Assembly (NCBI GenBank): GCA_013204395.1
Contig: JABMNZ010000003.1
Location: 13,570-77,569 of the forward strand
Source: Parcubacteria group bacterium
Lineage (GTDB): Bacteria > Patescibacteriota > Patescibacteriia > UBA9934 > GWF2-40-263
Reading direction: 5' to 3'
DNA: 64,000 bases
This document shows positions 20,533-39,080 of this stretch, piece by piece (positions within the stretch are counted from its first letter, which is position 1; each line of letters starts with the position of its first letter). The notes below the pieces were generated by a model. The model was given only the letters and a program-made list of their open reading frames with translations. It was not told the DNA's origin and made no database searches. The translations under genes were made by a program, and so were the position numbers.

Positions 20533-20573
20533 TGCGACTTTATTTCAAATAATCAGCTTAAAACAAAAATCAT

Positions 20574-20640
20574 GCATTCAATGCACGATTCGTGACTCAA
20601 CCCAGTATCAATTGTTGCATTCAATGCACAGGTTGGTCAG
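20574..20640. promoter_or_regulatory. Pair of 13-bp palindromes tgcattcaatgca (20574-20586 and 20628-20640) in a divergent intergenic region, plus TTGACA -35 at 20676
   Basis: Two identical perfect palindromes 54 bp apart, upstream of the GC-rich ORF and divergent from the RecB-like gene. A gtttcattgaca box at 20670-20681 is shared with the 42466-42477 promoter. Confidence 0.45.
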
Positions 20641-20722
20641 CAGGTTTGTACAGATTTTTGCGACGTTGTTTCATTGACATGACCTCTCTCCTATGGCTTA
20701 CTTCCCTCGGAATGGAGAAAAG

Positions 20723-22212: not shown

Positions 22213-22280
22213 TACAAAAAAATCACGGGCTCGATGCCCATGATTTTTCCTTCACCACCCCCACCTCCCTGGGTCCACCC

Positions 22281-22360
22281 CGGCGACTCAGACAGCGGAA
22301 CAACTTTGAGTCGGCAATATGCGACCGATCTCACAAGTTCGTTCCGATGGCTGAGGTCGC
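22281..22360. repeat. Palindromic MITE/REP-like element, copy A
   Basis: ggcgactcagacagcGGAACAACTTTGAGTCGGCAATATGCGACCGATCTCACAAGTTCGTTCCgatggctgaggtcgcc. The core is 85-95% identical to copies at 28086, 29268, 31476 and 37928, and it folds as a long imperfect hairpin. Confidence 0.8.
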
Positions 22361-22384
22361 CCAATCATAGAGAGAAAGTCAGTC

Positions 22385-24133: not shown

Positions 24134-24724
24134 TTAATTCAGATAAGAGCGCCCAGCTTGGATAATATCAGCTAAACCAAGTTGAGCAATTGCTGTATCC
24201 AAGGACGGCCCCCCGAAGATTACGACCACAGATAGGATAGCGATCACGAATGACAGCACGCCTACAAGCTTTCCAACTTTCATTGGCATGTGGTCACAGT
24301 TGCGACAAGTTCCAATGTAAACGATCTTTCGTAATACTTCAACTGGCTTGTCGTTGGAGGTTAATTTTGTTTCGCTAACCGCCATGACTGGCATATTGTT
24401 CTCCAATGCCTCTTCAATAACCTGATCGACAACAGCCTCTACATCAATTTTTTCTTTTGCAATTGACTTTGATACAACAGCCTTCTTTTTAGCTACTGTC
24501 TTTTTCTTTGCCGGAGCCTTCTTCTTGGCAACAGTCTTTTTAACAACCACCTTCTTTTTAGGTGCAGCTTTTCCGGCGGAGCCGGATCCCGCTGTGCGGG
24601 GCTTTTTTGCTACGGCTGGTTTTTTAGCCGAGCGCTTTTTTGCAGCTGGCTTTCCGGCGGAGCCGGACCTGGCTACGCCTGGCTTTTTTGCCGCCGCTTT
24701 GGGAGCCTTCTTTTTTGTAGGCAT
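24134..24724 (-). CDS. Lysine/alanine-rich histone-H1-like protein with a C-terminal TM anchor
   Basis: AKKPGVARSGSAGKPAAKKRSAKKPAVAKKPRTAGSGSAGKAAPKKKVVVKKTVAKKKAPAKKK, then a hydrophobic C-terminus (LVGVLSFVIAILSVVVIFG). It contains two copies of the ccggcggagccgga motif, each encoding GSGSAG. Confidence 0.5.
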   Translation of the reverse strand: MPTKKKAPKAAAKKPGVARSGSAGKPAAKKRSAKKPAVAKKPRTAGSGSAGKAAPKKKVVVKKTVAKKKAPAKKKTVAKKKAVVSKSIAKEKIDVEAVVDQVIEEALENNMPVMAVSETKLTSNDKPVEVLRKIVYIGTCRNCDHMPMKVGKLVGVLSFVIAILSVVVIFGGPSLDTAIAQLGLADIIQAGRSYLN

Positions 24725-24783
24725 AAGAGTGCTCTCTCGAGTTACCCCGAGAAATAATGAACGATTAAAAAATATTATTTCCA

Positions 24784-25239
24784 TTATAGCACACGGCTCA
24801 CCGGCACCACTAATGTTGAGCCGGAAAACTCGATCTGTGCGCTCACAGATCCACTCGTGAGATCAAAGTTCGTTGCCAGTGGCAGCCATGTAAGTGTGTT
24901 TCGATTGAATTGATACAGCACCACTTCTGTTACATCCACACTCTCATCAATAAAAAATGTAAGTTCACCCCGCTCAAGTTGACCACTATCAAGTATGAGT
25001 TCATATGCCGGTCCAATCACACCATCTACGCCAACTTGCACATCCTTAAGTCGTTCGATTGTCACGTCAGCGGCACTACGAGTAAGTCCAGTGACCTGAA
25101 CCACCCCATCAGATGACCCAGCAACAAGTTGCTCGGGTGCTGATGACAAGAAAAAGAAAATGCTACCAAACAAAACCATCGCGACGACAATCGCGATGGA
25201 AGCCTGACCCTCTTTTTTCTTCCTCCCTACCATACCCAC
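24784..25239 (-). CDS. Small secreted or anchored hypothetical protein
   Basis: 151 aa with an N-terminal TM/signal segment (IAIVVAMVLFGSIFFFL). No family recognised. Confidence 0.4.
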   Translation of the reverse strand: MGMVGRKKKEGQASIAIVVAMVLFGSIFFFLSSAPEQLVAGSSDGVVQVTGLTRSAADVTIERLKDVQVGVDGVIGPAYELILDSGQLERGELTFFIDESVDVTEVVLYQFNRNTLTWLPLATNFDLTSGSVSAQIEFSGSTLVVPVSRVL

Positions 25240-25248
25240 CTATTATAC

Positions 25249-26316
25249 CTACTCTTCCCAAGGAAGTCCCGTTCGTCCAAAATGTCCGTATGTTGCTGTC
25301 GATTGATACACTGGTTTAAGAAGATCGAGCCTCTCAACAATCGCCTCGGGCCTAAAATCAAATTGCTGAGTAATCAGTTTAGTGAGATCTCCGGCGGAGC
25401 CGGACCCGGCTCCGCCGGGCATTTTTGCCCCCTTAGACTTCACACCAATACCAGAGGCATGGATATGCACGGGCTCAGCACGCCCCATGGAATACACCAA
25501 GTTAACCATGGCGGCTGATGCCAACTCTTGATCCACTATATAACGCGCTGCATAGCGAGCCATGTAAGCCCCTGCGCGATCCACCTTCCCAGGATTTTTT
25601 CCTGAAAATGAGCTGCCACCATGAGGAATTAACCCCCCATAAGTATCTACATTCGACTTGCGTCCATTCGCTCCTGAGTCCGCCTTGAATCCCGCCTCAG
25701 TAAATGAACCAATTGGATTGATAAGTAATTGAGTTCCATCTTCTCCCACAACAGGAATAAGCAAACGTTCCAAAAGTGCAGTCTGCACATCTTTTTCTGC
25801 AACACTCACTTGATGACTGGCACACACCGTGACCCCAGTAACTTTCTCACGCTCCATCACCACCTGAACTTTGCCATCTGGTTTGAGCCAAGAGAACATA
25901 GGATCTCCGCGACGCAGATCATCGAGTCTTCGCGCCAAAGCGTGTGCGTACACCACAGCGCGTGGCAAACGCTCGCGCGTTTCACTCGTAGCGTAACCAT
26001 TAATGATCATGTTGTCCGTTGCGCCGTTTTTCACGCGCTTCATTTCTTCGGACTGAGTCTCAATGTTTACGAAGACTTCTATGTCATCGTTGTAACCAAT
26101 GTCTTTGTAAATCTTCTGAGCAAGAGCTCCAAGATCAAAATCCGCTGTAGACGTCACCTCCCCACCTATCATCATCATGCCATGGCTTCCCATCACATTG
26201 AGATCCACCTGCGCCTGAGGGTCTCGACGCAAATACTCGTCCACAATGGCATCAGCGATTTGATCGCAAACTTTGTCTGGATGTCCCTGTGTAACTGATT
26301 CAACGGTCTTTTTCAT
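25249..26316 (-). CDS. metK: S-adenosylmethionine synthetase (bacterial type)
   Basis: ESVTQGHPDKVCDQIAD, GGGAFSGK-like GGSSFSGKNPGKVDRAGAYMARY, and ATYGHFGR C-terminal signatures. It carries an extra roughly 10-aa GGAGSGSAG insertion encoded by the 28-bp palindrome at 25391-25418. Confidence 0.9.
   Translation of the reverse strand: MKKTVESVTQGHPDKVCDQIADAIVDEYLRRDPQAQVDLNVMGSHGMMMIGGEVTSTADFDLGALAQKIYKDIGYNDDIEVFVNIETQSEEMKRVKNGATDNMIINGYATSETRERLPRAVVYAHALARRLDDLRRGDPMFSWLKPDGKVQVVMEREKVTGVTVCASHQVSVAEKDVQTALLERLLIPVVGEDGTQLLINPIGSFTEAGFKADSGANGRKSNVDTYGGLIPHGGSSFSGKNPGKVDRAGAYMARYAARYIVDQELASAAMVNLVYSMGRAEPVHIHASGIGVKSKGAKMPGGAGSGSAGDLTKLITQQFDFRPEAIVERLDLLKPVYQSTATYGHFGRTGLPWEE
25391..25418. 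repeat. Perfect 13-bp inverted repeat with a 2-bp spacer (ccggcggagccgg ac ccggctccgccgg) inside metK
   Basis: Exact palindrome. Its 14-nt half-site recurs at 24573-24586 and 24654-24667. Confidence 0.75.
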
Positions 26317-26410
26317 AGCGACCGCAGGTTATCAAAATCAGGCCTCTGAATCAACGGATAAGCTGTGCGGGACATGTTGACAAGTAATAAACAAAGGAGT
26401 CAAATATCGA

Positions 26411-27007
26411 TTGCATTCCTCCTGCGACATGGAAAGGCCATTGAACGTGACGAATTCCGAAGCTGCTCCCCCATTCCTGACTAGAACCGAAGCCTTCGAC
26501 CGCTCGGAGTACGAACCCTTCTACCTGGTGATTGGCATCATCTGCTTTACCATGGGCATCGCAGCCTTGCTGCAAGTTGGACTATTCACAGGTACAACCA
26601 ACCTGATCAAGTGGGCAACAGGTATCAGTGCACTTGTGAGCGCGGTTCTCCTGCTGAGCAAGGCTGTCTGGTCCTGGTACACCGGCAAACACCTGGCTTA
26701 CAAGATCTTCGTCTTACTCTGCCAAGAGAAAGATCTGCTTGGACAGGGCAACATCCTCCAAGCGTCACTCGATCAAATCGTGATGCTTCGAAAGGTACTG
26801 AGCAAGCACCAAACGAACATGACATACGAACAGAACATGCACTTGCTCGGCGAAGTCACTCTCTTCGAGGTTGAGTGCCAAGTCATCAGGGCAAAGCTCC
26901 ACGCAGAGCAAGCCGCCCGGCTACAACAGGCATTCAAGGCAAGTAGACACGACCCACCTTGGGTGAACTTCACTGACACGGCCAAACAGGCATCTGTGAG
27001 CGTCTAG
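26411..27007 (+). CDS. GC-rich small membrane protein, paralogue 1 of 3
   Basis: 2-3 TM helices followed by a helical C-terminus LLGQGNILQASLDQIVMLRKVL...AKLHAEQAARLQQAFKA. It is similar to the 27108 ORF (LLKRGDALLMQQRSLVAQERVL...AQLEAQMARH...LLRQAFKAAG). The start may be the MERPLN at 26429. Confidence 0.5.
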   Translation: MHSSCDMERPLNVTNSEAAPPFLTRTEAFDRSEYEPFYLVIGIICFTMGIAALLQVGLFTGTTNLIKWATGISALVSAVLLLSKAVWSWYTGKHLAYKIFVLLCQEKDLLGQGNILQASLDQIVMLRKVLSKHQTNMTYEQNMHLLGEVTLFEVECQVIRAKLHAEQAARLQQAFKASRHDPPWVNFTDTAKQASVSV

Positions 27008-27013
27008 CTCACC

Positions 27014-27042
27014 ACGACCCCGACACGGAGGGTCTTTTTTCT
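27014..27042 (+). terminator. Rho-independent terminator
   Basis: gaccc-cgacacgga-gggtc followed by ttttttc. Confidence 0.7.
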
Positions 27043-27107
27043 TTGACAAATTAAGCCCATGAGAGTGAAGTGCCCGCGACGCACCTAAACGCGGCAGAAA
27101 GGCCACT

Positions 27108-27647
27108 ATGTCTGAGAGTCTCCCCCTGCAGTCCTTCACCACCTTCACCTCCGAAACAGAGATGAAGGCCCGTTACAACTGGGACTTCTTGATGTTTGCC
27201 GCGCTCATGCCACTGCTCTCAGGTCTGTTCTACGCGACAGCCAGAGACACTGGAAGCTTCAACTCGGAGATCCTCCTCATCTCCATTCCGTTGATGGCCA
27301 TCCCGTTCTTCTTGGCGGCAGCGCTGTGGGTTTTCTTGCGAGGAGACCATCATCAGTACAGCACGTTCGTCGAACTGTGCCAGCCTGACAATCTCCTGAA
27401 AAGAGGTGATGCACTGCTCATGCAGCAGAGAAGTCTCGTGGCACAAGAGAGGGTCTTGACCCTGCTGGAAGAAGGCTACGGCCCCAGTCAAGAGTTGACT
27501 GAAGCACGTGCTCAACTGGAAGCACAGATGGCCCGCCACGCAACTCGCGTCACGGAACTCGCTCGTCAGCAGGACTATCTCCTGCGACAAGCGTTCAAAG
27601 CAGCTGGCAAGAACCCACGGTTCCTGAGAGAGCCAACGCCAACGTGA
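27108..27647 (+). CDS. GC-rich small membrane protein, paralogue 2
   Basis: 179 aa with TM helices in the N-terminal half. The C-terminal helical domain is homologous to the 26411 ORF. It is preceded by a TTGACA box at 27043 and ggcagaaagg 8 nt before the ATG. Confidence 0.5.
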   Translation: MSESLPLQSFTTFTSETEMKARYNWDFLMFAALMPLLSGLFYATARDTGSFNSEILLISIPLMAIPFFLAAALWVFLRGDHHQYSTFVELCQPDNLLKRGDALLMQQRSLVAQERVLTLLEEGYGPSQELTEARAQLEAQMARHATRVTELARQQDYLLRQAFKAAGKNPRFLREPTPT

Positions 27648-27704
27648 ACACCTGGTCACAAGCCTGACCAACACTGACCCCGAACAGACACAGAAAGGCA
27701 CCCC

Positions 27705-27971
27705 ATGTCCGAACAGGTAATAGACGCAGCCACACTCCGCACCGCCTTCATGAAGTCCCTCAGGAACTCCCTGGTGGTAGCGCTGATCATCGCTGCGGGA
27801 ATGGTCTACCTGAAACTCACCTACTCGCCCACAGAGAACCAGGAGGCCTATGGAATCACCATGGGCTCCGGAGGCTTGTTCCTGACCATCGTCACTCTTC
27901 ACGCGCTCGGAAACTGCTTCTTGTACTGGACTCACCCAGTACGAAAGGGATCCATCCCGTCTTCTGAGTGA
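27705..27971 (+). CDS. GC-rich small 2-TM membrane protein, paralogue 3 (short)
   Basis: 88 aa with two TM helices. It has the same acagaaagg...ATG upstream context and terminator type as its neighbours. Confidence 0.4.
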   Translation: MSEQVIDAATLRTAFMKSLRNSLVVALIIAAGMVYLKLTYSPTENQEAYGITMGSGGLFLTIVTLHALGNCFLYWTHPVRKGSIPSSE

Positions 27972-27996
27972 GACGAACTCCTCGCTCAACACACCT

Positions 27997-28022
27997 GACC
28001 CCCATACGGAGGGTCTTTTTTC
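27997..28022 (+). terminator. Rho-independent terminator
   Basis: gaccccc-atacgga-gggtc followed by tttttttc, nearly the same hairpin as at 27016. Confidence 0.7.
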
Positions 28023-28085
28023 TTATATAGAACATCTACAACCCCAACCCACCAAACAAAACGTCGACCCACCACGGGCCACCCA

Positions 28086-28146
28086 AGAGGAATGAGCGTC
28101 GACACAACTTTGAGTCGGCAACACGCGACCGATCTCACAAGTTCGT
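28086..28146. repeat. Palindromic MITE/REP-like element, copy B
   Basis: gcgtcgacACAACTTTGAGTCGGCAACACGCGACCGATCTCACAAGTTCGTGCCgacgatc. Confidence 0.75.
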
Positions 28147-28204
28147 GCCGACGATCAGTTCCTCCAAAGCCTTCACATCGACTTATCCCCACCACACCCC
28201 TTGC

Positions 28205-28246
28205 GTTCGGTTTTTGTTCGGTTCATAATACGAACATAAAGCGAAC
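28205..28246. promoter_or_regulatory. Candidate LexA operator: phased GTTC/GAAC tetrads with 11-bp periodicity forming an imperfect 42-bp palindrome, 10 bp upstream of the lexA start
   Basis: GTTCggtttttGTTCgGTTCataatacGAACataaagcGAAC. It contains GTTC-N7-GTTC (alphaproteobacterial-type SOS box architecture) and its inverse, centred on a dyad axis. Confidence 0.5.
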
Positions 28247-28255
28247 AGGAAATTT

Positions 28256-28870
28256 ATGTCGAACATAACCAAAAAACAAGCAGAGGTGCTCGCGATCATC
28301 CGCACGCACCTTGAAGACGAGGGCTATGCCCCATCCTACCGAGAGATAGCAGACGCCCTAGGCCTCTCCTCCCCAGCCACTGTCCACGCGCATGTGCAAG
28401 CGCTGGCAGAAAAAGGTCTCATCGCCACCGGTGATGATGGGAGAGCGCGCTCAATCGAGCTAGTCGATGAAGAAGTTAAACAGCCATCAGTAATGCTACC
28501 CCTCATGGGTATCATCACAGCAGGAGAACCTATCGAGGCCGTGGAAGATAATGAAGCCATGGCTGTGCCTTCAGACTTTGTTCTAGACAGCGCCAACTCA
28601 TTTGTCCTTAGAGTAAAAGGACGCTCCATGATAGAAGATGGAATACTAGATGGCGACTACGTTGTCATCGAGAGAAATCCATCACCTCGTGACGGAGAGG
28701 TAGTGGTAGCCTTACTAGATAATGCCTTTGCCACGCTGAAACGATTTTACAGAGAACGCAATCGTATCAGACTTCAACCTGCAAACAGCTCCATGGAACC
28801 AATCTTCGTCCAAGACTGCATTATCCAAGGAGTTGTCCGAGCTGTCATAAGAAAATTTCAACCTGTGTAG
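28256..28870 (+). CDS. lexA: LexA repressor
   Basis: N-terminal wHTH (YREIADALGLSSPATVHAHVQALAEKGLI), an Ala-Gly cleavage site (ITAGEP), and the S24 Ser/Lys dyad region (VKGRSMIEDGI...VVALLDNAFATLKRF). Confidence 0.9.
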   Translation: MSNITKKQAEVLAIIRTHLEDEGYAPSYREIADALGLSSPATVHAHVQALAEKGLIATGDDGRARSIELVDEEVKQPSVMLPLMGIITAGEPIEAVEDNEAMAVPSDFVLDSANSFVLRVKGRSMIEDGILDGDYVVIERNPSPRDGEVVVALLDNAFATLKRFYRERNRIRLQPANSSMEPIFVQDCIIQGVVRAVIRKFQPV

Positions 28871-29089
28871 ACCGATCAAGAAGTTGCGGAGGGATCACGT
28901 AACATCTCGATAAAAAAAGATACTGAGCGTCCGGCAAGACAATTCTCAGTATCTACTCAAGGCACTACCTTGTTACGCCGAGGACGAATCCTCATTCGTA
29001 TGGCAGCTTTTGTATTGTAATGAAGGTGGGCGTGGAGAGCAAACCCGTCGGAGCTTGCTCTCTACACCTCACCTCTTAAAAAAGACCTC

Positions 29090-29190
29090 TAGGCCAAGGG
29101 TTCCGCTGCAAGCACGGGGACAGGAAAGACCATGCTCTGCCTGGGTGCCAGAGCCGTCACATCCAAGATCCTTCTTGCGGCCGAACCCTT
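29090..29190 (+). other. Candidate small structured RNA or regulatory element (long-range 18-bp stem enclosing internal hairpins)
   Basis: ccaagggttccgctgcaag (29093-29111) pairs with cttgcggccgaacccttg (29172-29189). An internal ctctg-cctgggtgc-cagag hairpin is present. Strand and function are unknown. Confidence 0.3.
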
Positions 29191-29267
29191 GATCTCGACC
29201 ATTATTCTTAACCCCAAGCATCTTCTTCACCCCTATCCCCCTCCACCACCAACATGGGTGTAACACC

Positions 29268-29347
29268 TCGACTCAGACATTGGGACAACTTTGAGTCGGC
29301 AATATGCGCCCGATCTCACAAGTTCGTACCAATGGCTGCAGTCGCCG
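29268..29347. repeat. Palindromic MITE/REP-like element, copy C
   Basis: cgactcagacattGGGACAACTTTGAGTCGGCAATATGCGCCCGATCTCACAAGTTCGTACCaatggctgcagtcgccgac. It has the same outer arms as copy A. Confidence 0.8.
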
Positions 29348-29583
29348 ACTATCAACAAGCTCGCCCAACACTCAACTCACAAACCCACCCCCTTCACCTT
29401 TTACAAACCATAACCCCATTACCCCTATGTCATCCTCGACCCTACGTTACACAGCCATCACACTATCATTCCTCCCTTACAAGCGTGATCATCGTTTTAC
29501 AAAAAGTCTACGCTCACTTCGTCTACGCGCTTCCAGACGCCGCGCTAAACAAGCTCTGCGACAAATACTCTCTCACGTAACAA

Positions 29584-29841
29584 ATGATGGCTATGCACGA
29601 GCTTCTTAATGACCCTGTGGACGTGGAGGTATCGTTTTCAAATAACCGTGTCGTTCCGCGTTCCATCAGGTGGAACCAAAAAGATTACAAAATTGAAACA
29701 GTAAACCTAGTTCACACGGCACGAGAGGGACACAAAAAAATGTTCTACTTCTCAGTCTCAGACCTAAATAACTATTTCAAACTAAAACTAGATCCAGAAA
29801 ATTTAGATTGGCGCCTAGTCGAGCTTTATACAGATGGATAA
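29584..29841 (+). CDS. Small AT-rich hypothetical protein in the lexA-dinB locus
   Basis: 85 aa (MMAMHELLNDPVDVEVSFSNNRVVPRSIRWNQKDYKIE...). It sits between lexA and dinB. A YolD/UmuD-accessory-like role is possible but not demonstrable from the sequence. Confidence 0.4.
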   Translation: MMAMHELLNDPVDVEVSFSNNRVVPRSIRWNQKDYKIETVNLVHTAREGHKKMFYFSVSDLNNYFKLKLDPENLDWRLVELYTDG

Positions 29842-29863
29842 AAGAAAAAGCACCTCATGGGTG

Positions 29864-30376
29864 CTAGTCGGCTTGTACCTTAAGTTCAAGGTACCTCACC
29901 AGGTCGAGTTCGTAGTGCCGATCAGATCCCTCAACGAGCTTGAAGCCGAGATTCTCGTACAGCGCGCGAGCTGCTTCGTGCCAGGGCTCAGAAACGAGCC
30001 GCACCACCTTGATGAGTGGGGACACTCCTACAGCCTGGTCGAGCAAATTCTCCATGAGTGCACGGCCAAGTCCTCGACCATCACCACGGAAGTCTTCGTC
30101 CACCAACACGTACTCAACATGACCAACACCCTTGCGCCAGTCGTAGGTGATGCAGAGCATGGCCACACCGACCACACGCCCTGTTTCCTGCTGACGGATC
30201 ACAGAGATGCGCGTGCGTGCGCGTTCCATAAGCCTACGCTGGTGCAAGACATCTTGGTACGGCAGAAGTCCTGATTGAAGTAGTTCATCGCCGCGCTCGT
30301 TTAGAAACGTAATGCAGTCACGGTAATCGTCCAGCCGAGCCAAATCGATCCTGAACAAGGTGCTGTTAAAGGGCAT
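29864..30376 (-). CDS. GNAT family N-acetyltransferase
   Basis: VAMLCITYDW...VLVDEDFRGDGRGLGRALMENLLDQA is the acetyl-CoA-binding Q/RxxGxG/A motif. Confidence 0.75.
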   Translation of the reverse strand: MPFNSTLFRIDLARLDDYRDCITFLNERGDELLQSGLLPYQDVLHQRRLMERARTRISVIRQQETGRVVGVAMLCITYDWRKGVGHVEYVLVDEDFRGDGRGLGRALMENLLDQAVGVSPLIKVVRLVSEPWHEAARALYENLGFKLVEGSDRHYELDLVRYLELKVQAD

Positions 30377-30427
30377 GTGTGCCTCCTAGAAAAAGACTCT
30401 ACCATAGAATCTATCATCGTCAAACTT

Positions 30428-31777
30428 ATGGAGCGCATCATTCTCCACATTGATTTTAATTCCTACTTCGCCTCTGTTGAACAGCAGGCGAATCCCTTTT
30501 TACGTGGCAAACCCATCGGCATCACAGGAAAAAGCCAGGAGCGCTCTGTTGTCGCCACAGCCTCAATTGAAGCCAAAGCCCTTGGTGTTAAAACAGCCAT
30601 GAGTACATGGGAGGCAAAGAAGGTATGCCCAACAATCATCCTCTGGCCTGGTGATCCAGAAAAGTATTCAGACATCACATCTAGATTTAATCGAATCTTA
30701 AGTGAGTTCACACCAAACGTCTCTCAGTTCAGTGTGGACGAGAGTTTTTTAGATATTACAGACGAGGCTGAAGATTATTTCGGCGCAACCTGCCTTGCTC
30801 AAGCTTTGCGCGAGCGACTCAGAGAGGAGTTTGGAGATCACATCACCGCTTCCATAGGCATCGCCCCAAACAAGCTCATGGCCAAACTCGCCTGCGAGTC
30901 AGTCAAACCTAATGGACTAACGGTCGTTCGCAAAGACGACTTAATCGATTTCATCGACACGCGTGAACTTGATGACCTATGTGGAATCGGACATCGTATA
31001 AAGCATCGCCTGAATGCTCTTGGCGTTGAAACTTTTAAACAACTCCGTGAATTCCCCATCAACGATCTCGTCGATGAATTCAAATCTTACGGCACTTGGC
31101 TACATGCAGCAGCTCATGGACACGACTCATCCGCGGTCGTCTCATCCACGCAAAAAGGCATTCGCACCATGCACTCGACTGGCGTGAAGTCTTATGGACA
31201 CTCATACACCCTCCCTCAAAACACTCACGACCTCCTTGTCATAAAACGATACCTACTAGGCCTGGCAGACAAAGTTGCATGGCGCATGCGCCGCGATAAA
31301 ACCCTAGCCCGTCGCGTAAGCGTCTTTGTTCGTTTTGGCGACTTCACTGGACACGGCGAGCAACGCACATTCAACGAACCAACAGCCAACGGACTAAAAC
31401 TATTCCAAATAGCCTGGCGCATCCTCTCCCCCCATCTCTCCCCTCACTCTCACCCCCAACCCACAGGCCGAGCACGCGACACAGACATTGGTACAACTTT
31501 GAGTCGGCCTACCAGTGACCGATCTCAAAGTTCGTACCAAGGGCTGGGGTCGCCCCCCAATGACCTAGTCCGCCTAGTAGGCCTATCTACATCCCTATTA
31601 TCCTCAGGTCCTGAACAACCACCTCTATTTAAAAAAGACCGAAAGATGATTTCCGTCTTCTCTTCACTCGACAAGCTTCAACATCGATATGGTCCCGGTG
31701 TCTGGCAACGCGCTTCAACCATGCCAATCGAATTCAAATCCCGATCTAGTGGATTCAATTATGACCACGAGGTTTAA
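30428..31777 (+). CDS. dinB: DNA polymerase IV (Y-family), with an in-frame palindromic-element insertion in the little-finger region
   Basis: ILHIDFNSYFASVEQ, SIDE-like VDESFLDIT, and the C-terminal LVRLVGLSTSLL...PPLF little-finger motifs. Residues around SPHLSPHSHPQPTGRARDTDIGTTLSRPTSDRSQSSYQGLGSP are encoded by repeat copy D, so the protein is roughly 80-100 aa longer than typical DinB. The start was trimmed to MERIIL. Confidence 0.8.
   Translation: MERIILHIDFNSYFASVEQQANPFLRGKPIGITGKSQERSVVATASIEAKALGVKTAMSTWEAKKVCPTIILWPGDPEKYSDITSRFNRILSEFTPNVSQFSVDESFLDITDEAEDYFGATCLAQALRERLREEFGDHITASIGIAPNKLMAKLACESVKPNGLTVVRKDDLIDFIDTRELDDLCGIGHRIKHRLNALGVETFKQLREFPINDLVDEFKSYGTWLHAAAHGHDSSAVVSSTQKGIRTMHSTGVKSYGHSYTLPQNTHDLLVIKRYLLGLADKVAWRMRRDKTLARRVSVFVRFGDFTGHGEQRTFNEPTANGLKLFQIAWRILSPHLSPHSHPQPTGRARDTDIGTTLSRPTSDRSQSSYQGLGSPPNDLVRLVGLSTSLLSSGPEQPPLFKKDRKMISVFSSLDKLQHRYGPGVWQRASTMPIEFKSRSSGFNYDHEV
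31476..31555. repeat. Palindromic MITE/REP-like element, copy D (inside the dinB coding sequence, frame preserved)
   Basis: gcgacacagacattGGTACAACTTTGAGTCGGCCTACCAGTGACCGATCTCAAAGTTCGTACCaagggctggggtcgcc. Confidence 0.8.
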
Positions 31778-32490
31778 AGCTTCTTAAAGATCAGCATCTG
31801 AGAAATAGATTGGTCTTTGAATTCTCTAAACCTTGGATACCCATTCATAAGACCTTCAGTGGGTACCATGGGTGTCTGTTCTACAAGTTCAAAGCCAGCT
31901 TGTTCAGCAGCTTTAATATATGTCTCAGTCGTTCTGTAGATATCATATGAAGTTCCAAACTCACGAGGTATGGCTGCCACAAACATATCATCGCCCATAC
32001 TCTCGACTTTTGCCTCACCAAGACGATTCTTCTTAACGTACTCAAAATCAGGAACAGTTATCACAAAGATTCCACCTTGCTTAATTACCCCAGCCAAACT
32101 TTCAAATGATTTTGTCAGGTCTTCGAGATGGTTAGCAACATAAAGCATAAAACCAATATCAAAGAACCCCTCATGCTCCATAGTGTCGACCGTTGCACAC
32201 TGAACAATCACGGATGGATGCTGCTCTCGCATAAACTTCGCACCCTTCTCAGATGGTTCAACTGCTGTAATCGATCCCGCTTCCAGCTCGACCAAGACTT
32301 TCACAAGCCACCCAGTACCAGCCCCAATGTCGATCACCCTCTTGCCTGTCACTTCTGAAAGGATGTCACGAATATACTCAAGAACAAACTTTCTAAACGG
32401 AGAATCAACAGTCGCCTCTGAAGTCCAATCAATACGATCATCATCGTACTGCTTTGGATCAATAGCCTTTTGAAAAAAATCAGATGTCAT
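31774..32490 (-). CDS. Class I SAM-dependent methyltransferase
   Basis: VIDIGAGTGWL is motif I, and the Rossmann fold continues through ...GIFVITVPD. Confidence 0.7.
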   Translation of the reverse strand: MTSDFFQKAIDPKQYDDDRIDWTSEATVDSPFRKFVLEYIRDILSEVTGKRVIDIGAGTGWLVKVLVELEAGSITAVEPSEKGAKFMREQHPSVIVQCATVDTMEHEGFFDIGFMLYVANHLEDLTKSFESLAGVIKQGGIFVITVPDFEYVKKNRLGEAKVESMGDDMFVAAIPREFGTSYDIYRTTETYIKAAEQAGFELVEQTPMVPTEGLMNGYPRFREFKDQSISQMLIFKKL

Positions 32491-34209: not shown

Positions 34210-36300
34210 CTATAAATCATCAACATTTCTTAAAAAACTCATTGAACTCACATCCTTCTCTTCTCGCTCTCCAATGTCATTAAGCACGATAGTCGGACCC
34301 TCATCACCATCATTCCAGCGCGATCTGCTTGGCGCGGTGTATGCAGCCTTGAGTCTAACTTGTTCGAATAAATCATCTGGGAGCTCCTGCAAGAACTGTG
34401 ATGGCTGTCCTATCATGAGCGTATCATAGCCAGAAGTGATCGGGTATGTGTAAAAAAGTTGCTTGCGCGCACGTGTCGTTGCCACGTAAAACAATCGTCT
34501 CTCTTCCTCAAGACCACCTTTTTCTTCAAGCGCCCGACCAATGGGAAACTTTCCATCAATCAAATGCATCACAAACACAGCATCCCATTCAAGTCCCTTT
34601 GCTTGATGAATGGTAGACAGAACGATCTTCTCAGCATCATCATGCCCGCCTTGTTCCCTCACCGCCCCGTAGTCTGCACTGAGCGACACCTCATCAAGAA
34701 AAGTGGTCAGACTCTTATATCCCTCTGCAAATAATGCAAATTGTTCTAGATCGTCCAAACGATCCATAAAGTCCGGGTACTCAGCTTCGACATAATCTCG
34801 ATAGTCCCCACCGATTACAGCCCTAATCAAATCAGAGGGCATCTCTTCGGCGGCTAGCTTTGTAAGCGTTCTGAGCAAGGTGGCCCATCCAGCTTGTGCG
34901 CGCTTACCAAACTTCATTTCTACCTTGAGAATCTCCTCTAGGGATTCAACTCCCTTTATCAATGAAATAATTTTTTGTGCCGTCACCAATCCAACCCCAC
35001 TGAGAAGACCCAGAACTCTCATCCAAGCCACTTCATCTTTTGGATTCTGCTTGATTCGCAGATGCGTCACAATATCCTTCACGTGTGCTCTTTCAAAAAA
35101 CTTAAGCCCTCCACGATACTCGTAAGGGATATCTCGCTTCATGAGTTCAAACTCAAGTGTCTGTGAGTGATAAGCCGCACGAAACAAAACGGCAATTTCA
35201 CTGAGAGGAATACCCTCATCGCGTAGCACCAAAATTCGTTGGGCAATATATTGTGCTTCTTGGTTACTATTGGATGCTGGCACTAAATTAGGACGTTCCA
35301 ATCCGTCTCGTACGGTAGTGAGTTCTTTTTTAAACTGCTCTCTGTTTTTTATAATCGACTCGTTAGCCACAGCCAAAATCTCAGGTGACGATCGGTAGTT
35401 GATTGTGAGTCTAAACGTTTTTGTTTCGTTGTACGTCTGAGGAAACCCAAGAATATTCTTGATCTCAGCGGCGCGGAATGAATAAATGGATTGCGCGTCA
35501 TCCCCAACCACTAAAATATTTCCGTGCTCAGCTGCAAGCTGCCTAACAATCTCCGCCTGCACAACATTTGTATCCTGATACTCATCAACCAGAATATACT
35601 CAAACTGATGAGCGAGCTGCTGTCGAATATTCTCACGCGTATACAAAAGTTCTCGAAGTTTCAAAAGCAGGTCATCAAAGTCCATGGCGTCTGCCTCCCG
35701 CTTACGTATGTGATATAGCTCAGCTATTCTCTCGATGATCGGAATGATTTCCTTAAAGTTTGAATAACGGCCCTCGATCACTTCCCTCAGGGTGCCGCCA
35801 GAGTTCATGGAGTAACTAATCATCCCGTGCAACTTGGCAGGCGATGGAAAACGTCGCTCGGAAGTATCGACGTTCAATACTTTGATACAAACCTTTATGA
35901 GCGACTTGGCATCCTCTTGATCCAAAATCGTAAAACTTGATGTGTACCCAAGCTCACGCGCGTACTTTCGCAGGAGTCGGTTAGCTATGGAGTGAAACGT
36001 TCCACCCCAGAGACCAACTGGGTACCTCCCCAAAAGCCCTTCAACGCGTGACAACATCTCTTTGGCCGCCTTGTTCGTGAACGTCACGAGCAGAATATTG
36101 TCCGCACTGACCCCTCGTTCTAATAAATAGGCCACGCGGTACGTAATGGTCCTGGTTTTACCCGACCCAGCCCCTGCCAAAACAAGAGCGGGTCCATCTC
36201 CGTTAAGAACCACTTCCAGCTGCTGTGGATTCAATTCCTTTTTAAAATCAATCGTTGACTGCGATAGATCAAAATCATCTTGTAATACAAATTCCTTCAT
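34210..36300 (-). CDS. uvrD: ATP-dependent DNA helicase UvrD/PcrA
   Basis: Walker A AGAGSGKTRT, motif II ILVDEYQDTN, plus VGDDAQSIYSFRAA and TIHQAKGLEWDAVFV helicase motifs. Confidence 0.9.
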   Translation of the reverse strand: MKEFVLQDDFDLSQSTIDFKKELNPQQLEVVLNGDGPALVLAGAGSGKTRTITYRVAYLLERGVSADNILLVTFTNKAAKEMLSRVEGLLGRYPVGLWGGTFHSIANRLLRKYARELGYTSSFTILDQEDAKSLIKVCIKVLNVDTSERRFPSPAKLHGMISYSMNSGGTLREVIEGRYSNFKEIIPIIERIAELYHIRKREADAMDFDDLLLKLRELLYTRENIRQQLAHQFEYILVDEYQDTNVVQAEIVRQLAAEHGNILVVGDDAQSIYSFRAAEIKNILGFPQTYNETKTFRLTINYRSSPEILAVANESIIKNREQFKKELTTVRDGLERPNLVPASNSNQEAQYIAQRILVLRDEGIPLSEIAVLFRAAYHSQTLEFELMKRDIPYEYRGGLKFFERAHVKDIVTHLRIKQNPKDEVAWMRVLGLLSGVGLVTAQKIISLIKGVESLEEILKVEMKFGKRAQAGWATLLRTLTKLAAEEMPSDLIRAVIGGDYRDYVEAEYPDFMDRLDDLEQFALFAEGYKSLTTFLDEVSLSADYGAVREQGGHDDAEKIVLSTIHQAKGLEWDAVFVMHLIDGKFPIGRALEEKGGLEEERRLFYVATTRARKQLFYTYPITSGYDTLMIGQPSQFLQELPDDLFEQVRLKAAYTAPSRSRWNDGDEGPTIVLNDIGEREEKDVSSMSFLRNVDDL

Positions 36301-36374
36301 AACGGCCCCATTCTATCATAAAAAAAGACCCCTGACCCTCGACGTTATCGAGTTGGTCAAGGGGTCAAAGGGGG

Positions 36375-37760
36375 CTACAGAGGAGCACAAGCCTTGCGCA
36401 ACTCTGCGTCCACACTCTTGAGATCGGGCCCACCGTCTGTGAGCTGGCGCATGAGGTGAACGTTTGCCAGGTGTACGTGCGGGAACACACTGGCACGAAC
36501 CTGGCGACTGAACCCGTAGTCTAGCAACTGGCCCGTCATCGGATCTGGACGAGTAAGTCGTCGGTGTATGGACTTGAGCTCGTCGTCCCAAGCTCTACAG
36601 CAAGAGTCTGAGACGGTTTGGCTTCGGTCCATGAGAATCGCCGTCTGCAACAAGAGCTCCTCAAGCTGCCAGTGGAGTTCCCGAAGCTTCATGCTGTGAT
36701 AGACACGAATGAGCACGTCCCGCGCGCGCAACATCACGGCAGCGGCGGCATCAGGAATTTCGCTTCGTGCCACTTTGGCAGCCTCAGCCATGATGGCGGC
36801 AACCTCACGAAGGTCACGCACGGTGTGCTTGATGGAACGATCAAACGGCTTGGTGACGACGGCTTCGAGCTTTGTCGCCACCGCTCCCAGACGTCCCGCT
36901 TCCTTGATGACCGTCCCGGTAGAACGTTCTTCAGAGGAACCTGCTCGCCTTGCATCAAACGGCAGAAGTCGATCGTCACCAAACAGTTTCCTGGACTGCA
37001 GGCGATGCAACTGGGAGTCAGCGATCTGGCGACACATCAACCGATGACGATCGATGTAGACCTCCAGGACCGCCTCACGAAAACTCATTCTTCGTGAAAT
37101 GCCGCGCACCCCCTGAATCCGCTTGGCGAGCTGAGTTTGCCCCGCGAAGATGATCAGTGGGATACGACCAGGATTGAACCTCCCGATCGAGTCTTTCAGC
37201 TCTCCGGCCTGAAGCACGCGGCGCAGAGCCTCTACCTTACGTTCGTCAATGACACGACCATGCCTGTCCAGCAGAGCGGCCGCAACCAGGACGTACTCCT
37301 GTTTTTCACCCTCACCAACCAGGTGAAGGGTCCATGATGTCTTGACCATCCAGTTGAAGGTGTCGTCCCAGGTACGAAGATCGGGAATCTCGATGCTCTT
37401 GCCGCGCACCTCAGCGTGGGCCATCCCTCGTCGAGCCGTGTAGACGGTCTTGTACGAGATGAAACACTGTTGCCCATATTCCAGAGGATCCTCGCCATTG
37501 AGGCGCTCTGAGACACTCAGGTTTCTGGACAAGATACGACCTGGGGCAAGCTCCGGAACATCCGCAAGAACGTCGGTGCCGCGAGCCGGTACCATGTAAA
37601 GACAGTGTGGAACCAGCTCAATGAGAGCAAAGTTCAAGACATTGAGGGGAGACTGTTTGCCCTCACCCTTTCTCCTAGTACGCAGAAGCCTGAAGTCACG
37701 AGTAATGACAACGGGCTCCATCGGATCCGGCATTTCAAACCGGCCTGTGGAATGAGCCAC
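36375..37760 (-). CDS. GC-rich hypothetical protein
   Basis: 461 aa, Arg/Leu-rich and predicted cytoplasmic. Codon usage is distinct from flanking genes. No family recognised. Its upstream region contains repeat copy E. Confidence 0.45.
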   Translation of the reverse strand: MAHSTGRFEMPDPMEPVVITRDFRLLRTRRKGEGKQSPLNVLNFALIELVPHCLYMVPARGTDVLADVPELAPGRILSRNLSVSERLNGEDPLEYGQQCFISYKTVYTARRGMAHAEVRGKSIEIPDLRTWDDTFNWMVKTSWTLHLVGEGEKQEYVLVAAALLDRHGRVIDERKVEALRRVLQAGELKDSIGRFNPGRIPLIIFAGQTQLAKRIQGVRGISRRMSFREAVLEVYIDRHRLMCRQIADSQLHRLQSRKLFGDDRLLPFDARRAGSSEERSTGTVIKEAGRLGAVATKLEAVVTKPFDRSIKHTVRDLREVAAIMAEAAKVARSEIPDAAAAVMLRARDVLIRVYHSMKLRELHWQLEELLLQTAILMDRSQTVSDSCCRAWDDELKSIHRRLTRPDPMTGQLLDYGFSRQVRASVFPHVHLANVHLMRQLTDGGPDLKSVDAELRKACAPL

Positions 37761-37927
37761 GATTCAGACCTCCTTTTCCAGTGCTTTTTCTCAATGAATC
37801 AGCCCTGCAAGATAATCAAATCCAACCACCTTGTCAACACTAATTTCCCCAAAAACAAAACAAAGGTCTCGACGACCTTTGTTTTGTTAACCCCCCCTCT
37901 CCACACCACCAGTCGTGGGTAAACCAC

Positions 37928-38006
37928 CGCGAACGAGCGTTGGGACAACTTTGAGTCGGCAATATGCGACCGATCTCACAAGTTTGTACCAGTGATCGGT
38001 TCGCCG
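37928..38006. repeat. Palindromic MITE/REP-like element, copy E
   Basis: cgcgaacgagcgttGGGACAACTTTGAGTCGGCAATATGCGACCGATCTCACAAGTTTGTACCagtgatcggttcgccg. Confidence 0.8.
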
Positions 38007-38056
38007 CTCACAAACAAACCCACCCCTTCGACTCCGCTCAGGGAGTAATCAATAGT

Positions 38057-39076
38057 TTATTTCAAATACTTATACTTGTTCGCAATATGCTGATCAAAAC
38101 TAGCCGCATAAATCACCTCCCCTTCTGGTGTCGTTAAAAAATACAAATACTCAGAATCCACAGGATCCAACACGGCAGCAATAGAGTTCATCCCAGGGTT
38201 ACTAATCGGCCCAGGTGGCAACCCAAGATTCTTGTACGTATTATATGGCGAGTTGATTCTCGAATCTTCCAAAGAGACTCCTGGATCGCTCTTGCCGGTA
38301 ATGTAATTCACGGTTGAATCTGCCTGCAGAGCCATTCCTATCTGTAATCTTGTGAAAAAGATTCCAGCAACAATTTTCATATCTTCAACTGACTGAACCT
38401 CTCGCTCAACTATGGATGCCAGTGTCATGACCTCGTGCACAGTCAGTCCGTTATTAAAAACCAAAGAGTCTGGAATCACTATTTCGCTTTCCGCCATTCG
38501 CCTCTTAAGTGTCAGCACCATGGTGTCTACAATCGTTTGTGCACTCACGTCTTCTCGGAAACGATAAGTGTCTGGAAAAAGATAACCTTCAAGACCCTGC
38601 CCCTGTGGAATGCCAGCCAGAATATTTGACGCTGTCACCATCCATTTCCCAGCCTCTCCAGAAACTTCATTCCAATCGTCTTCACTCACACTCTCAAAAG
38701 CATCGACAACAACCGCGCCCATCTGCGAACTGGTGAAGCCCTCAGGAAAAGTCACCTCGACTTCAGAAGCCTCAGCATAAGCAAGCTCAGAAACAATACT
38801 TCTGATACTAGAACCTGGTGTGATCTCAAAACTTCCCGCCTGGAGGATAACGTCATTTAACCTGACATACACCTTGAAAAAAAATGGACTTGTAATCATT
38901 TCAGCATCACTGAGGGCTTTGGCTATCGCCTCAACTGATGCACCTTGCTCTACATCAAAAGCTACTGACTCAGCGGCATCTGATGGACCAATGAGATACG
39001 CGTCATAGGCATAGGACCCGGCTAGAATAGTTCCAACGACGACCGCGATGCCAAAGAAAAGAAGAATTGCTCTCAT
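38057..39076 (-). CDS. mltG: Endolytic murein transglycosylase MltG (YceG-like)
   Basis: N-terminal TM segment, then the YceG domain (ILAGIPQGQGLEGYLFPDTY...ASIVEREV...GLPPGPISNPG). The start was trimmed to MRAILLFF. A bidirectional terminator lies at about 37850-37885. Confidence 0.8.
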   Translation of the reverse strand: MRAILLFFGIAVVVGTILAGSYAYDAYLIGPSDAAESVAFDVEQGASVEAIAKALSDAEMITSPFFFKVYVRLNDVILQAGSFEITPGSSIRSIVSELAYAEASEVEVTFPEGFTSSQMGAVVVDAFESVSEDDWNEVSGEAGKWMVTASNILAGIPQGQGLEGYLFPDTYRFREDVSAQTIVDTMVLTLKRRMAESEIVIPDSLVFNNGLTVHEVMTLASIVEREVQSVEDMKIVAGIFFTRLQIGMALQADSTVNYITGKSDPGVSLEDSRINSPYNTYKNLGLPPGPISNPGMNSIAAVLDPVDSEYLYFLTTPEGEVIYAASFDQHIANKYKYLK

Positions 39077-39080
39077 AGTA

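What the first reader, a model, noticed from the sequence alone, without database searches (positions are those of the whole stretch)
31440..31570. A palindromic element is inserted in frame inside the dinB little-finger region without disrupting the ORF
Repeat copy D lies within the dinB ORF. The reading frame continues through it, and canonical Y-family C-terminal motifs (LVRLVGLSTSLL...PPLF) follow it. The DinB protein therefore carries an extra roughly 27-aa Pro/Ser/Thr/Arg-rich segment (SPHLSPHSHPQPTGRARDTDIGTTLSRPTSDRSQSSYQGLGSP) encoded by the element. This resembles the in-frame insertion of Rickettsia palindromic elements into protein-coding genes.
Basis: partly seen in the sequence, partly recalled or inferred. 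Interest (0 to 1): 0.7.

Follow-up and report, generated by a model that had tools for sequence, protein, structure and literature searches.

The report
Hairpin repeat inserted in-frame in dinB
A 117-base copy of a hairpin-forming repeat sits in frame inside the translesion DNA polymerase gene dinB of an uncultured ultra-small (CPR/Uhrbacteria-like) bacterium; it adds a floppy 39-residue loop without breaking the gene, as the palindromic elements of Rickettsia do, which makes this a new example of a known phenomenon.

Summary
dinB (30428-31777, +) holds one of five same-strand copies of a ~120-nt repeat: a C-rich leader followed by an ~80-nt imperfect hairpin. Against empty-site orthologues of 82-88% identity, the insert is exactly 117 nt (39 codons, not ~27). 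It lies between the last helix and last strand of the little-finger domain and is modelled as disordered. A relative from an independent assembly (88% identical) carries the same insert, so it is neither an artefact nor recent.

The flanking dinB codons differ mainly at third positions, so the gene is under purifying selection. Inside the insert, changes are spread evenly over codon positions. The hairpin arms are almost frozen (2/67 sites; third positions 1/23 against 152/404 in the flanks), whereas 8 of 11 loop bases differ. The constraint is therefore on the nucleic-acid hairpin, not on the peptide.

The hairpin core recurs in tight intergenic spacers of other CPR contigs with compensatory stem changes. 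It matches no Rfam family, and no transposase is encoded in the window. At least three other CPR DinBs carry unrelated palindromes in the same loop.

Verdict: an RPE-like in-frame insertion, a new member of a known kind. How the element moves, and whether the hairpin has a function, remain unresolved.

The parts
30428..31777 (+). dinB (DNA polymerase IV, Y-family), 449 aa plus stop; identical to database protein P0001
   Evidence: ORF and start codon. Pfam IMS 1.2e-42, IMS_C 5.2e-18, IMS_HHH_1. Foldseek top hits are DinB/Dpo4-DNA complexes.
31441..31563 (+). Repeat copy inside dinB. The net insertion relative to empty-site orthologues is 117 nt (39 codons) and lies within 31433-31567. It encodes ...SPHSHPQPTGRARDTDIGTTLSRPTSDRSQSSYQGLGSPPNDL.
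   Evidence: nhmmer E=1.3e-28; CM 81.3 bits; DNA alignment with L018 and L020; protein alignments.
31433..31475 (+). C-rich, non-palindromic leader of the inserted unit; it gives the Pro/Ser/His-rich part of the peptide
   Evidence: The leader is shared with the other window copies (107-nt family D1; alignment). 12 of 43 sites differ from L017.
31476..31507 (+). 5' arm of the hairpin, including the core ACAACTTTGAGTCGG
   Evidence: Fold; covariation; 2 of 32 sites differ from L017.
31508..31518 (+). Apical loop (CCTACCAGTGA)
   Evidence: 8 of 11 sites differ from L017.
31519..31553 (+). 3' arm of the hairpin, including the core CCGATCTCAAAGTTCG
   Evidence: 0 of 35 sites differ from L017, although third-position divergence in the flanking gene is 0.38.
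31568..31777 (+). Last little-finger strand (VRLVGLSTSLL), a QPPLF motif (probable beta-clamp-binding motif, inferred) and the conserved C-terminal extension, all in frame after the insert
   Evidence: Alignments; differences by codon position [9,2,30].
22249..22370 (+). Intergenic copy, between convergent ORFs 20693-22162 (+) and 22385-23512 (-)
   Evidence: nhmmer 1.4e-33; fold z = -4.35.
28057..28173 (+). Intergenic copy about 85 nt upstream of lexA. Orthologous copies are present in L017, L020 and L021.
   Evidence: lexA Pfam.
29234..29354 (+). Intergenic copy in the lexA-orf85 spacer. An orthologous copy in L017 (1264-1384) shows compensatory stem changes; no copy was detected in L020.
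37894..38014 (+). Intergenic copy between two minus-strand genes (36375-37760 and the YceG-family gene 38057-39142)
28256..28870 (+). lexA, part of the conserved lexA-orf85-GNAT-dinB neighbourhood that holds three of the five copies
   Evidence: Pfam LexA_DNA_bind and Peptidase_S24; synteny in L017, L020 and L021.

Best explanation
A ~120-nt non-autonomous dispersed repeat of a CPR (Uhrbacteria-like) lineage, made of a C-rich leader and an ~80-nt imperfect hairpin, was inserted once into dinB. The insertion happened in the common ancestor of this genome and the one behind L017, in the loop between the last helix and the last beta-strand of the little-finger domain.

The unit is 117 nt long and landed in one of its two stop-free forward frames. 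The ribosome therefore reads straight through it, and DinB gains a 39-residue Pro/Ser/Thr/Arg-rich, probably disordered, surface loop. That loop position tolerates insertions, so the polymerase remained under purifying selection.

The peptide appears to be a passenger. What is conserved inside the insert is the base-paired hairpin, whether because hairpins of this family have some nucleic-acid-level role or because quasi-palindromes correct themselves.

Shown: the repeat family, the exact in-frame insertion, the empty sites in orthologues, the loop position, selection on the flanking codons, and nucleotide-level conservation of the arms. Inferred: translation of the insert, its neutrality for DinB function, and the mobility of the element and its mechanism.
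For: - Five copies in the window and none beyond them.
- Exactly 117 nt are absent from L018 and L020 and from about 60 orthologues.
- The same insert occurs in an independent ENA assembly with conserved synteny (L017).
- Differences by codon position are [16,15,122] and [9,2,30] in the flanks, against [8,7,10] with 13 non-synonymous and 4 synonymous codons in the insert.
- Arms differ at 2/67 sites and the loop at 8/11. Third positions in the arms differ at 1/23 sites against 152/404 in the flanks, Fisher p=5e-4.
- The AlphaFold model has a disordered insert between H321-336 and E380-392. The homologous loop in PDB 7yll is about 7 residues.
- Unrelated palindromes occupy the same loop in other CPR DinBs: L022 has 40-nt arms (z=-8.3); L023 has a CCCCCCCCTTTTCAAGGGGG-type ~20-nt palindrome three times (75-100% alike), two of them inside dinB; L024 also carries an insert.
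- The element is present or absent at orthologous sites and sits in unrelated operon spacers in other CPR contigs.
- Two of the three forward frames of the consensus element are open.
- In-frame palindromic insertions have a precedent in Rickettsia RPEs (PMC10969869).
Against: - There are no RNA or protein data, so translation of the insert is inferred.
- No target-site duplication, terminal inverted repeats, transposase or RAYT was found. Mobility rests only on the presence/absence pattern.
- Orthologous copies keep the hairpin through compensatory changes. The element also occupies the same mreB-glycosyltransferase spacer in two genomes whose synonymous sites are near saturation. Both fit a selected function better than junk DNA.
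- No other protein carrying this family in frame was found. Unlike RPEs, this family does not visibly favour genes.
Confidence: 0.7

Rival explanations
1. The hairpin is a functional cis-acting element, either a structured RNA or an ssDNA/cruciform site bound by a conserved CPR protein. On this reading the copy in dinB is retained because it regulates the gene: it would affect transcription, mRNA stability or translation of dinB within the lexA-dinB SOS neighbourhood. The peptide would be a by-product.
For: - The arms are conserved at the nucleotide level within coding sequence, while the loop and the peptide drift.
- Covariation is strong: 92% of cells paired, score 0.321 against 0.109 in shuffles (0/500) and at most 0.133 for slid pairings.
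- The core has fixed bulges and is shared by diverged CPR lineages.
- The element sits in the same spacer in L003 and L014 although third-position divergence is 0.52-0.64.
- Several copies lie next to DNA-repair genes: lexA (two copies), dinB, upstream of the uvrD operon, uvrB-uvrA, and next to xseA.
Against: - Other copies lie in unrelated contexts: grpE-dnaK, frr-glyS, metG, a P-type ATPase, NifU, PAP2.
- Orientation relative to the flanking genes is mixed, about 4 sense and 6 antisense outside the window.
- G-U and A-C cells are about equally frequent (my tally of roughly 10 each from the pair-type lists, which show a few A-C cells fewer in the second listing), so no one strand looks like the RNA.
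- It matches no Rfam family.
- The closest DinB orthologues do without it.
- The candidate LexA boxes upstream of lexA are separate from the hairpin.
- The invariance of the core is partly built in, because most outside copies were retrieved with an exact core pattern.
- Quasi-palindrome template switching can produce compensatory changes without selection (established knowledge).
Confidence: 0.2
2. The insert is not part of the mature protein. It would be removed from the mRNA like an intron, or skipped by translational bypassing at the hairpin, as in T4 gene 60 or the mitochondrial 'byp' elements.
For: The insert forms a stable hairpin (-41 kcal/mol). Its peptide is unconstrained, as expected if it is never made.
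Against: - The insert is a multiple of three and free of stop codons in two lineages that differ at 25 of 135 sites. Neither property would be needed if it were removed.
- An ~80-nt hairpin has none of the features of a group I or II intron, and Rfam finds nothing.
- A take-off codon followed by a stop, as required for bypassing, is not present: the frame stays open.
- Unconstrained disordered loops are common in proteins.
Confidence: 0.04
3. The feature is an assembly artefact, or dinB is a decaying pseudogene in which the open frame is fortuitous.
For: The sequence is a metagenome-assembled contig, and repeats can cause mis-joins.
Against: - The same insertion at the same site occurs in an independent assembly from another sample (L017, ENA ERZ4200961) with the same gene order.
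- Synonymous changes dominate on both sides of the insert.
- All catalytic and little-finger motifs are intact.
Confidence: 0.02

Closest known systems
Rickettsia palindromic elements (RPEs; Ogata et al. 2000, as summarised in PMC10969869)
   Same: Both are palindromic repeats of 100-150 nt without a transposase of their own. Both are inserted in frame in a housekeeping gene, keep the frame open, and add a peptide at a position compatible with the fold. Both occur in a reduced genome.
   Different: The host phylum is different (CPR, not Rickettsia), and no sequence relationship was tested or expected. Only one of the five window copies is intragenic, and no second protein host was found. The unit is asymmetric, with a C-rich leader ahead of the hairpin. 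For RPEs the conserved feature reported is an encoded peptide, whereas here the peptide drifts and the stem is conserved.
REP/BIME elements and REPINs of proteobacteria
   Same: Both are imperfect hairpins that fill short spacers between co-directional genes, occur in either orientation, have a conserved core and no coding capacity.
   Different: REPs are 20-40 nt, extragenic by definition, usually very numerous, and tied to a RAYT (Y1 transposase) gene and a 5' GTAG-type tetranucleotide. Here the hairpin is about 80 nt, one copy is inside a gene, no RAYT is encoded in the 64 kb, and no conserved 5' tetranucleotide was recognised.
Bacterial MITEs found inside genes (ERIC, Correia/NEMIS, BOX and cyanobacterial MITEs; Delihas 2007, cited in PMC10969869)
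   Same: They are small non-autonomous repeats that sometimes create in-frame fusions with host ORFs.
   Different: MITEs are defined by terminal inverted repeats, target-site duplications and a parent IS element. None of these was found here. The 5' leader has no inverted partner at the 3' end.
Lineage-specific loop insertions in Y-family polymerase little-finger domains
   Same: The extra sequence is confined to a loop between secondary-structure elements of the little finger.
   Different: Here the origin of the insertion is identifiable: it is homologous to intergenic repeats in the same genome.

Membership tests
Y-family DNA polymerase IV (DinB) | IMS catalytic core, thumb HhH and little-finger (IMS_C) domains | tested here: met
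   Pfam IMS 1.2e-42, IMS_HHH_1 4.2e-07, IMS_C 5.2e-18. PDB Pol IV hits down to 2.8e-46. Foldseek TM about 0.70 to E. coli DinB-DNA complexes.
Y-family DNA polymerase IV (DinB) | Intact gene under purifying selection | tested here: met
   Against L017, 152 of 194 differences in the flanks are at third codon positions; amino-acid identity is 0.92 and 0.87.
Rickettsia palindromic elements (RPE) | Sequence homology to one of the RPE families of Rickettsia | not tested
   No RPE consensus sequences were available in the tools. The host is a CPR bacterium, so homology is not expected.
Rickettsia palindromic elements (RPE) | Palindromic repeat of about 100-150 nt present in several copies per genome | tested here: met
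   Five copies of about 120 nt, each with a hairpin of about 80 nt.
Rickettsia palindromic elements (RPE) | Frequent in-frame insertion into many unrelated ORFs | tested here: not met
   One of five copies is intragenic. A profile of the encoded peptide found no other host among 1.84 billion representatives. That search cannot see variants within 50% identity clusters.
Rickettsia palindromic elements (RPE) | Insert is transcribed and translated with the host gene | not testable with these tools
   Only indirect support: the frame is open in two lineages and the codons downstream are under selection.
MITE | Terminal inverted repeats and target-site duplication | tested here: not met
   The 5' leader has no inverted partner. 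No consistent flanking direct repeat was seen on inspecting the five copies and the filled and empty sites. The C-rich flanks make short matches uninformative.
MITE | A related autonomous IS element with a transposase | tested here: inconclusive
   None among about 60 ORFs of the window. The rest of the genome was not available.
REP / REPIN | Associated RAYT (Y1 transposase) gene | tested here: inconclusive
   No Y1_Tnp hit in the window ORFs. A genome-wide test was not possible.
REP / REPIN | Strictly extragenic, short (20-40 nt) palindrome | tested here: not met
   The hairpin is about 80 nt and one copy lies within dinB.
Described structured RNA family (Rfam 15) | Match to a curated covariance model | tested here: not met
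   No hit on any copy at the gathering threshold or at E<=10.

The most novel reading that the evidence does not exclude
The hairpin could be a previously undescribed, protein-recognised nucleic-acid element conserved across CPR lineages, with an invariant 13-bp core, two fixed bulges and covarying outer stems. It would be maintained by selection at fixed genomic positions. In dinB it would then be a functional structured element embedded in, and co-evolving with, a coding sequence. One example of such a role is a brake on translation or transcription, or an RNA-processing site, controlling an error-prone polymerase.
Probability: 0.15. Interest if true: 0.75.

Novelty: new member of a known kind. 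Interest (0 to 1): 0.45.

Why it matters
The finding extends the RPE phenomenon, in which selfish or structured palindromes become part of proteins, from Rickettsia to the Candidate Phyla Radiation, another group with reduced genomes. One loop of the DinB little finger has accepted at least four unrelated palindromic insertions, which gives a natural map of where this polymerase tolerates extra sequence.

The contrast between frozen stems and a drifting peptide is a clean case of a nucleic-acid constraint overriding the codon-position pattern inside an ORF. It also makes testable the question of whether such hairpins do anything in CPR genomes.

For annotation, it warns that Pro/Ser-rich 'linkers' in CPR proteins may be repeat insertions.

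Tried and rejected
- **Rfam.** One scan at the gathering threshold and two at E<=10 found nothing on any copy.
- **Other in-frame hosts.**
  - A concatenated peptide query covering four frames returned nothing.
  - The insert peptide alone also returned nothing. Neither search recovered P0001, which contains the peptide, so the word index does not cover this segment and both results are uninformative.
  - The exhaustive profile search gave only two unrelated tandem-repeat proteins.
- **Longer parent element.** I looked for a longer element upstream of each copy, in the higher-GC blocks that lack Pfam hits. blastn and tblastx show no similarity beyond the ~120-nt unit.
- **LexA operator.** The hairpin is not the LexA operator. 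The lexA upstream region has separate GTTC-N7-GTTC and GAAC-N7-GAAC repeats, and most outside copies are not near SOS genes.
- **Orientation and replication.** All five window copies are on the strand with negative GC skew, as are most outside copies. Three loci are opposite, and in short loci skew is confounded with gene direction. This is only a hint.
- **attC, CRISPR repeat, terminator.** By inspection there is no R''/R' consensus and no array. The terminator scan of 27900-31900 calls no terminator on the + strand of the three copies it covers.
- **L008.** This core-only match inside an SDR gene has no outer stem and is probably a chance hit to the 21-nt pattern.
- **Literature.** No paper linking CPR with MITE, REP or in-frame palindromes was found in the held library.

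Full report
**What is at the coordinates**

The ORF that spans the finding starts at ATG 30428 and ends with the stop at 31775-31777, giving 449 aa. It is a Y-family DNA polymerase IV. Pfam finds IMS (1.2e-42), IMS_HHH_1 and IMS_C (5.2e-18), and the IMS_C match stops at residue 335 of the 448-aa query, which starts one codon after the ATG. PDB Pol IV chains match down to 2.8e-46. An AlphaFold model superposes on DinB/Dpo4-DNA complexes with TM about 0.7. The database copy of the protein (P0001) is labelled Parcubacteria, and its closest named relatives are Candidatus Uhrbacteria, so the window comes from a CPR/Patescibacteria contig.

**The repeat is real**

- blastn with the region finds four further + strand matches in the window.
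- An nhmmer profile gives 22249-22370, 28057-28173, 29234-29354, 31441-31563 and 37894-38014, with E-values from 1e-28 to 1e-33.
- A covariance model finds no sixth copy.
- Each copy has a C-rich leader of about 40 nt followed by an imperfect hairpin of about 80 nt. Four of the five hairpins fold clearly better than shuffled sequence (z -3.0 to -4.6; the dinB copy -41 kcal/mol, z -3.0). The fifth, at 37892-38017, does not (z -1.5).
- The other four copies are intergenic.

**The insertion is exact and in frame**

The closest orthologues that lack the insert are P0003, P0004 and P0005 (82-88% identity over their aligned residues; 75-81% by BLASTP over the query). About 60 further CPR DinBs also lack it. 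All of them go from the helix ...FQIAW(R/N)I(I/L)x through about 7 residues to the strand VRLVGL. The window protein has 46 residues there.

At the DNA level the window and L017 have 168 nt between the FQIAW and RLVGLS codons, whereas L018 and L020 have 51.

P0002 is 88% identical and comes from an independent ENA assembly with the same lexA-orf84-GNAT-dinB-methyltransferase order (L017). It carries the same insert at the same place. This excludes an assembly artefact and dates the insertion to before the two lineages split.

**Where it sits in the protein**

The model gives the little finger as E255-265, H268-288, E291-302, E307-318, H321-336 and E380-392. Residues 343-375 have pLDDT below 50. 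In the solved Pol IV 7yll the equivalent loop runs from about residue 318 to 324.

The insert is therefore a long, probably disordered loop between the last helix and the last strand of the little finger. It lies just upstream of a conserved Q-x-x-L-F segment, which I take to be the beta-clamp-binding motif; that is an inference from the known bacterial consensus.

**What selection acts on**

I compared the window with L017 codon by codon.

| Region | Differences | Notes |
|---|---|---|
| 335 codons before the insert | [16,15,122] by codon position | purifying selection on a translated frame |
| 69 codons after the insert | [9,2,30] by codon position | same signature |
| 45 codons around the insert | [8,7,10] by codon position | 13 non-synonymous, 4 synonymous codons |
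| Hairpin arms | 2 of 67 sites | the 3' arm, 31519-31553, has none |
| Apical loop | 8 of 11 sites | |
| C-rich leader | 12 of 43 sites | |
| Third positions in the arms | 1 of 23 | against 152 of 404 in the flanking gene, Fisher p = 5e-4 |

The loop and leader have diverged at least as much as synonymous sites, so the insert is as old as the split. The arms are held constant at the nucleotide level. The peptide is not what is being conserved.

**The hairpin family outside the window**

Exact-pattern scans for the core recovered one Uhrbacteria MAG contig (L001) and 15 metagenome loci (L002-L016).

- In these loci the element fills very tight spacers between co-directional genes. Examples are grpE-dnaK, uvrB-uvrA, mreB-glycosyltransferase, frr-glyS, next to xseA, metG-cvpA-like, DsbD-P-type ATPase, NifU-oxidoreductase and cytidylyltransferase-PAP2. 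It occurs in either orientation relative to the genes.
- An alignment of 20 copies gives a consensus hairpin of 22 pairs, 9 of them with compensatory changes.
- 92% of cells are paired. The covariation score is 0.321, against 0.109 in shuffles (0 of 500 reach it) and at most 0.133 when partners are slid.
- The 13-bp core (AACTT-TGAG-TCGG / CCGA-T-CTCA-N-AAGTT), with two bulges on the 3' arm, is invariant in most copies. This is partly by construction, because the outside copies were fetched with that pattern. The copies found by profile instead (L017 1264-1384, L020 3594-3705) do vary there, and they do so compensatorily (ACTT/AAGT to ATTT/AAAT).
- L003 and L014 carry the element in the same mreB-glycosyltransferase spacer although their third-position divergence is 0.52-0.64. 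Their outer stems differ entirely in sequence yet are fully paired.
- No Rfam family matches any copy.
- By my tally of the pair-type lists, G-U and A-C cells are about equally frequent (roughly 10 each in the first listing, a few A-C cells fewer in the second), so neither strand stands out as the RNA.

**Mobility**

The evidence for mobility is the presence/absence pattern. The dinB site is filled in two lineages and empty in all others. The lexA-orf85 spacer is filled in the window and L017, with no copy detected in L020. The site upstream of lexA is filled in the window, L017, L020 and L021.

I found no target-site duplication and no terminal inverted repeats, and the leader makes the unit asymmetric. 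Among about 60 ORFs of the window none has a transposase, integrase or Y1/RAYT domain. The mechanism of spread is unknown.

**A tolerant loop**

Among 67 aligned CPR DinBs, the same helix-strand loop is lengthened by 21 residues or more in five proteins of four kinds: the window and P0002, P0068, P0086, and P0032.

- The P0068 insert (L022 1145-1247) is a separate palindrome with 40-nt arms (z = -8.3).
- P0086 (L023) holds a CCCCCCCCTTTTCAAGGGGG-type palindrome of about 20 nt in this loop. A 95%-identical copy lies elsewhere in dinB, and a 75%-identical one lies in the spacer just upstream.
- P0032 (L024) has short GC hairpins in its insert.
- None of these matches the covariance model of the present family.

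In-frame capture of palindromic repeats is therefore recurrent in CPR dinB, and this loop is its preferred landing place.

**Interpretation**

The best-supported account is an RPE-like event. A non-autonomous hairpin repeat landed in frame in a permissive loop of DinB, is read through, and adds a neutral, drifting, disordered peptide while the polymerase stays functional (confidence about 0.7).

The main rival, at about 0.2, is that the hairpin is itself a selected cis-element and that the dinB copy regulates the gene. The frozen arms, the compensatory evolution at orthologous sites and the L003/L014 case favour this. The heterogeneous genomic contexts, the mixed orientation, the absence of the insert from the nearest orthologues, and the known ability of quasi-palindromes to self-correct by template switching weigh against it.

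Removal from the mRNA or translational bypass (about 0.04) is unnecessary given the open frame. An artefact or pseudogene (about 0.02) is contradicted by the independent assembly and the codon-position pattern.

**Comparison with known systems**

In-frame palindromic insertions are established for Rickettsia RPEs and occur occasionally for ERIC, BOX and cyanobacterial MITEs (PMC10969869). The present case works like an RPE but is not a member of that family.

- The phylum is different.
- Only one of five copies is intragenic, and no other protein host was found.
- The stem rather than a peptide is conserved.

It also fails the defining features of a MITE (TIR, TSD, parent IS) and of REP/REPIN elements (short, extragenic, RAYT-linked), as far as these could be tested. 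I found no paper describing such elements in CPR bacteria in the held library.

**Verdict**

This is a new member of a known kind and of moderate interest. What raises it above routine is the recurrent use of one DinB loop and the nucleotide-level constraint on a hairpin inside an ORF.

Noticed in passing
window 28871-29175 (lexA-orf85 spacer); also L017 935-1240 and L020 4536-5190: The first ~170 nt after lexA are nearly identical in three genomes and include the hairpin GATACTGAGCGTCCGGCAAGACAATTCTCAGTATC. A block of about 90 nt (ggttccgctgcaagcacggggacaggaaagaccatgctctgcctgggtgccagagccgtcacatccaagatccttcttgcggccgaaccc) is also conserved, and is shifted in L020. This is a candidate structured non-coding RNA with no Rfam match.
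   Followed up: partly
window 28205-28246: Just upstream of lexA there is a GTTC-N7-GTTC direct repeat and, 13 nt later, GAAC-N7-GAAC. This resembles the direct-repeat SOS boxes of alphaproteobacteria and is a candidate LexA operator for this CPR lineage. No similar motif is obvious in the 51-nt GNAT-dinB spacer.
   Followed up: partly
window 20774-21381 (-): ARAGORN calls a 608-nt permuted tmRNA inside ORF 20693-22162. Rfam gives no tmRNA hit, so this is probably a false positive.
   Followed up: partly
window 20000-22000, 26000-28000, 36000-38000: Three blocks of higher GC (0.53-0.54, against about 0.46 elsewhere) hold ORFs without Pfam hits: one of 489 aa, two paralogous ~180-200-aa ORFs, and one of 461 aa. 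Each block ends next to a repeat copy. No sequence similarity between the blocks was found beyond the repeat.
   Followed up: partly
L017 50-240 (upstream of lexA): The orthologue of the window copy at 28057-28173 is broken after its 5' arm and is followed by a second, more divergent full hairpin copy. This looks like a nested or tandem insertion of the same family.
   Followed up: no
DinB orthologues P0024, P0032, P0009 (alignment A2): Other CPR DinBs carry lineage-specific insertions at other loops: P0024 has about 26 extra residues in all (2 + 24) in the stretch before the little finger, P0032 has +17 aa and P0024 +12 aa after GITGK near the N-terminus, and P0009 has +8 aa in a little-finger hairpin. 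Their DNA was not examined for palindromes.
   Followed up: no
window 24456-25432 and 62705-62794: Short GC-rich hairpin-like repeats (TCCGGCGGAGCCGGA...GGC(T)TTTTTGC) recur in and next to the Lys/Ala-rich HC2-like ORF 24134-24784. Separately, an 18-nt tandem repeat lies within the ribosomal protein L25/TL5 gene 62688-63374.
   Followed up: no
window 13266-13383 (-): The ribosomal protein L10 leader (RF00557, 49.1 bits) lies at the 5' end of the ORF 12732-13475 that holds the L10 domain (Pfam match from residue 77). It is the only Rfam hit in the window at the gathering threshold.
   Followed up: no
window 50230-54618 (-) and 9539-11815 (+): Two very large ORFs (1462 aa and 758 aa) have no Pfam match at E<=1e-5.
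   Followed up: no
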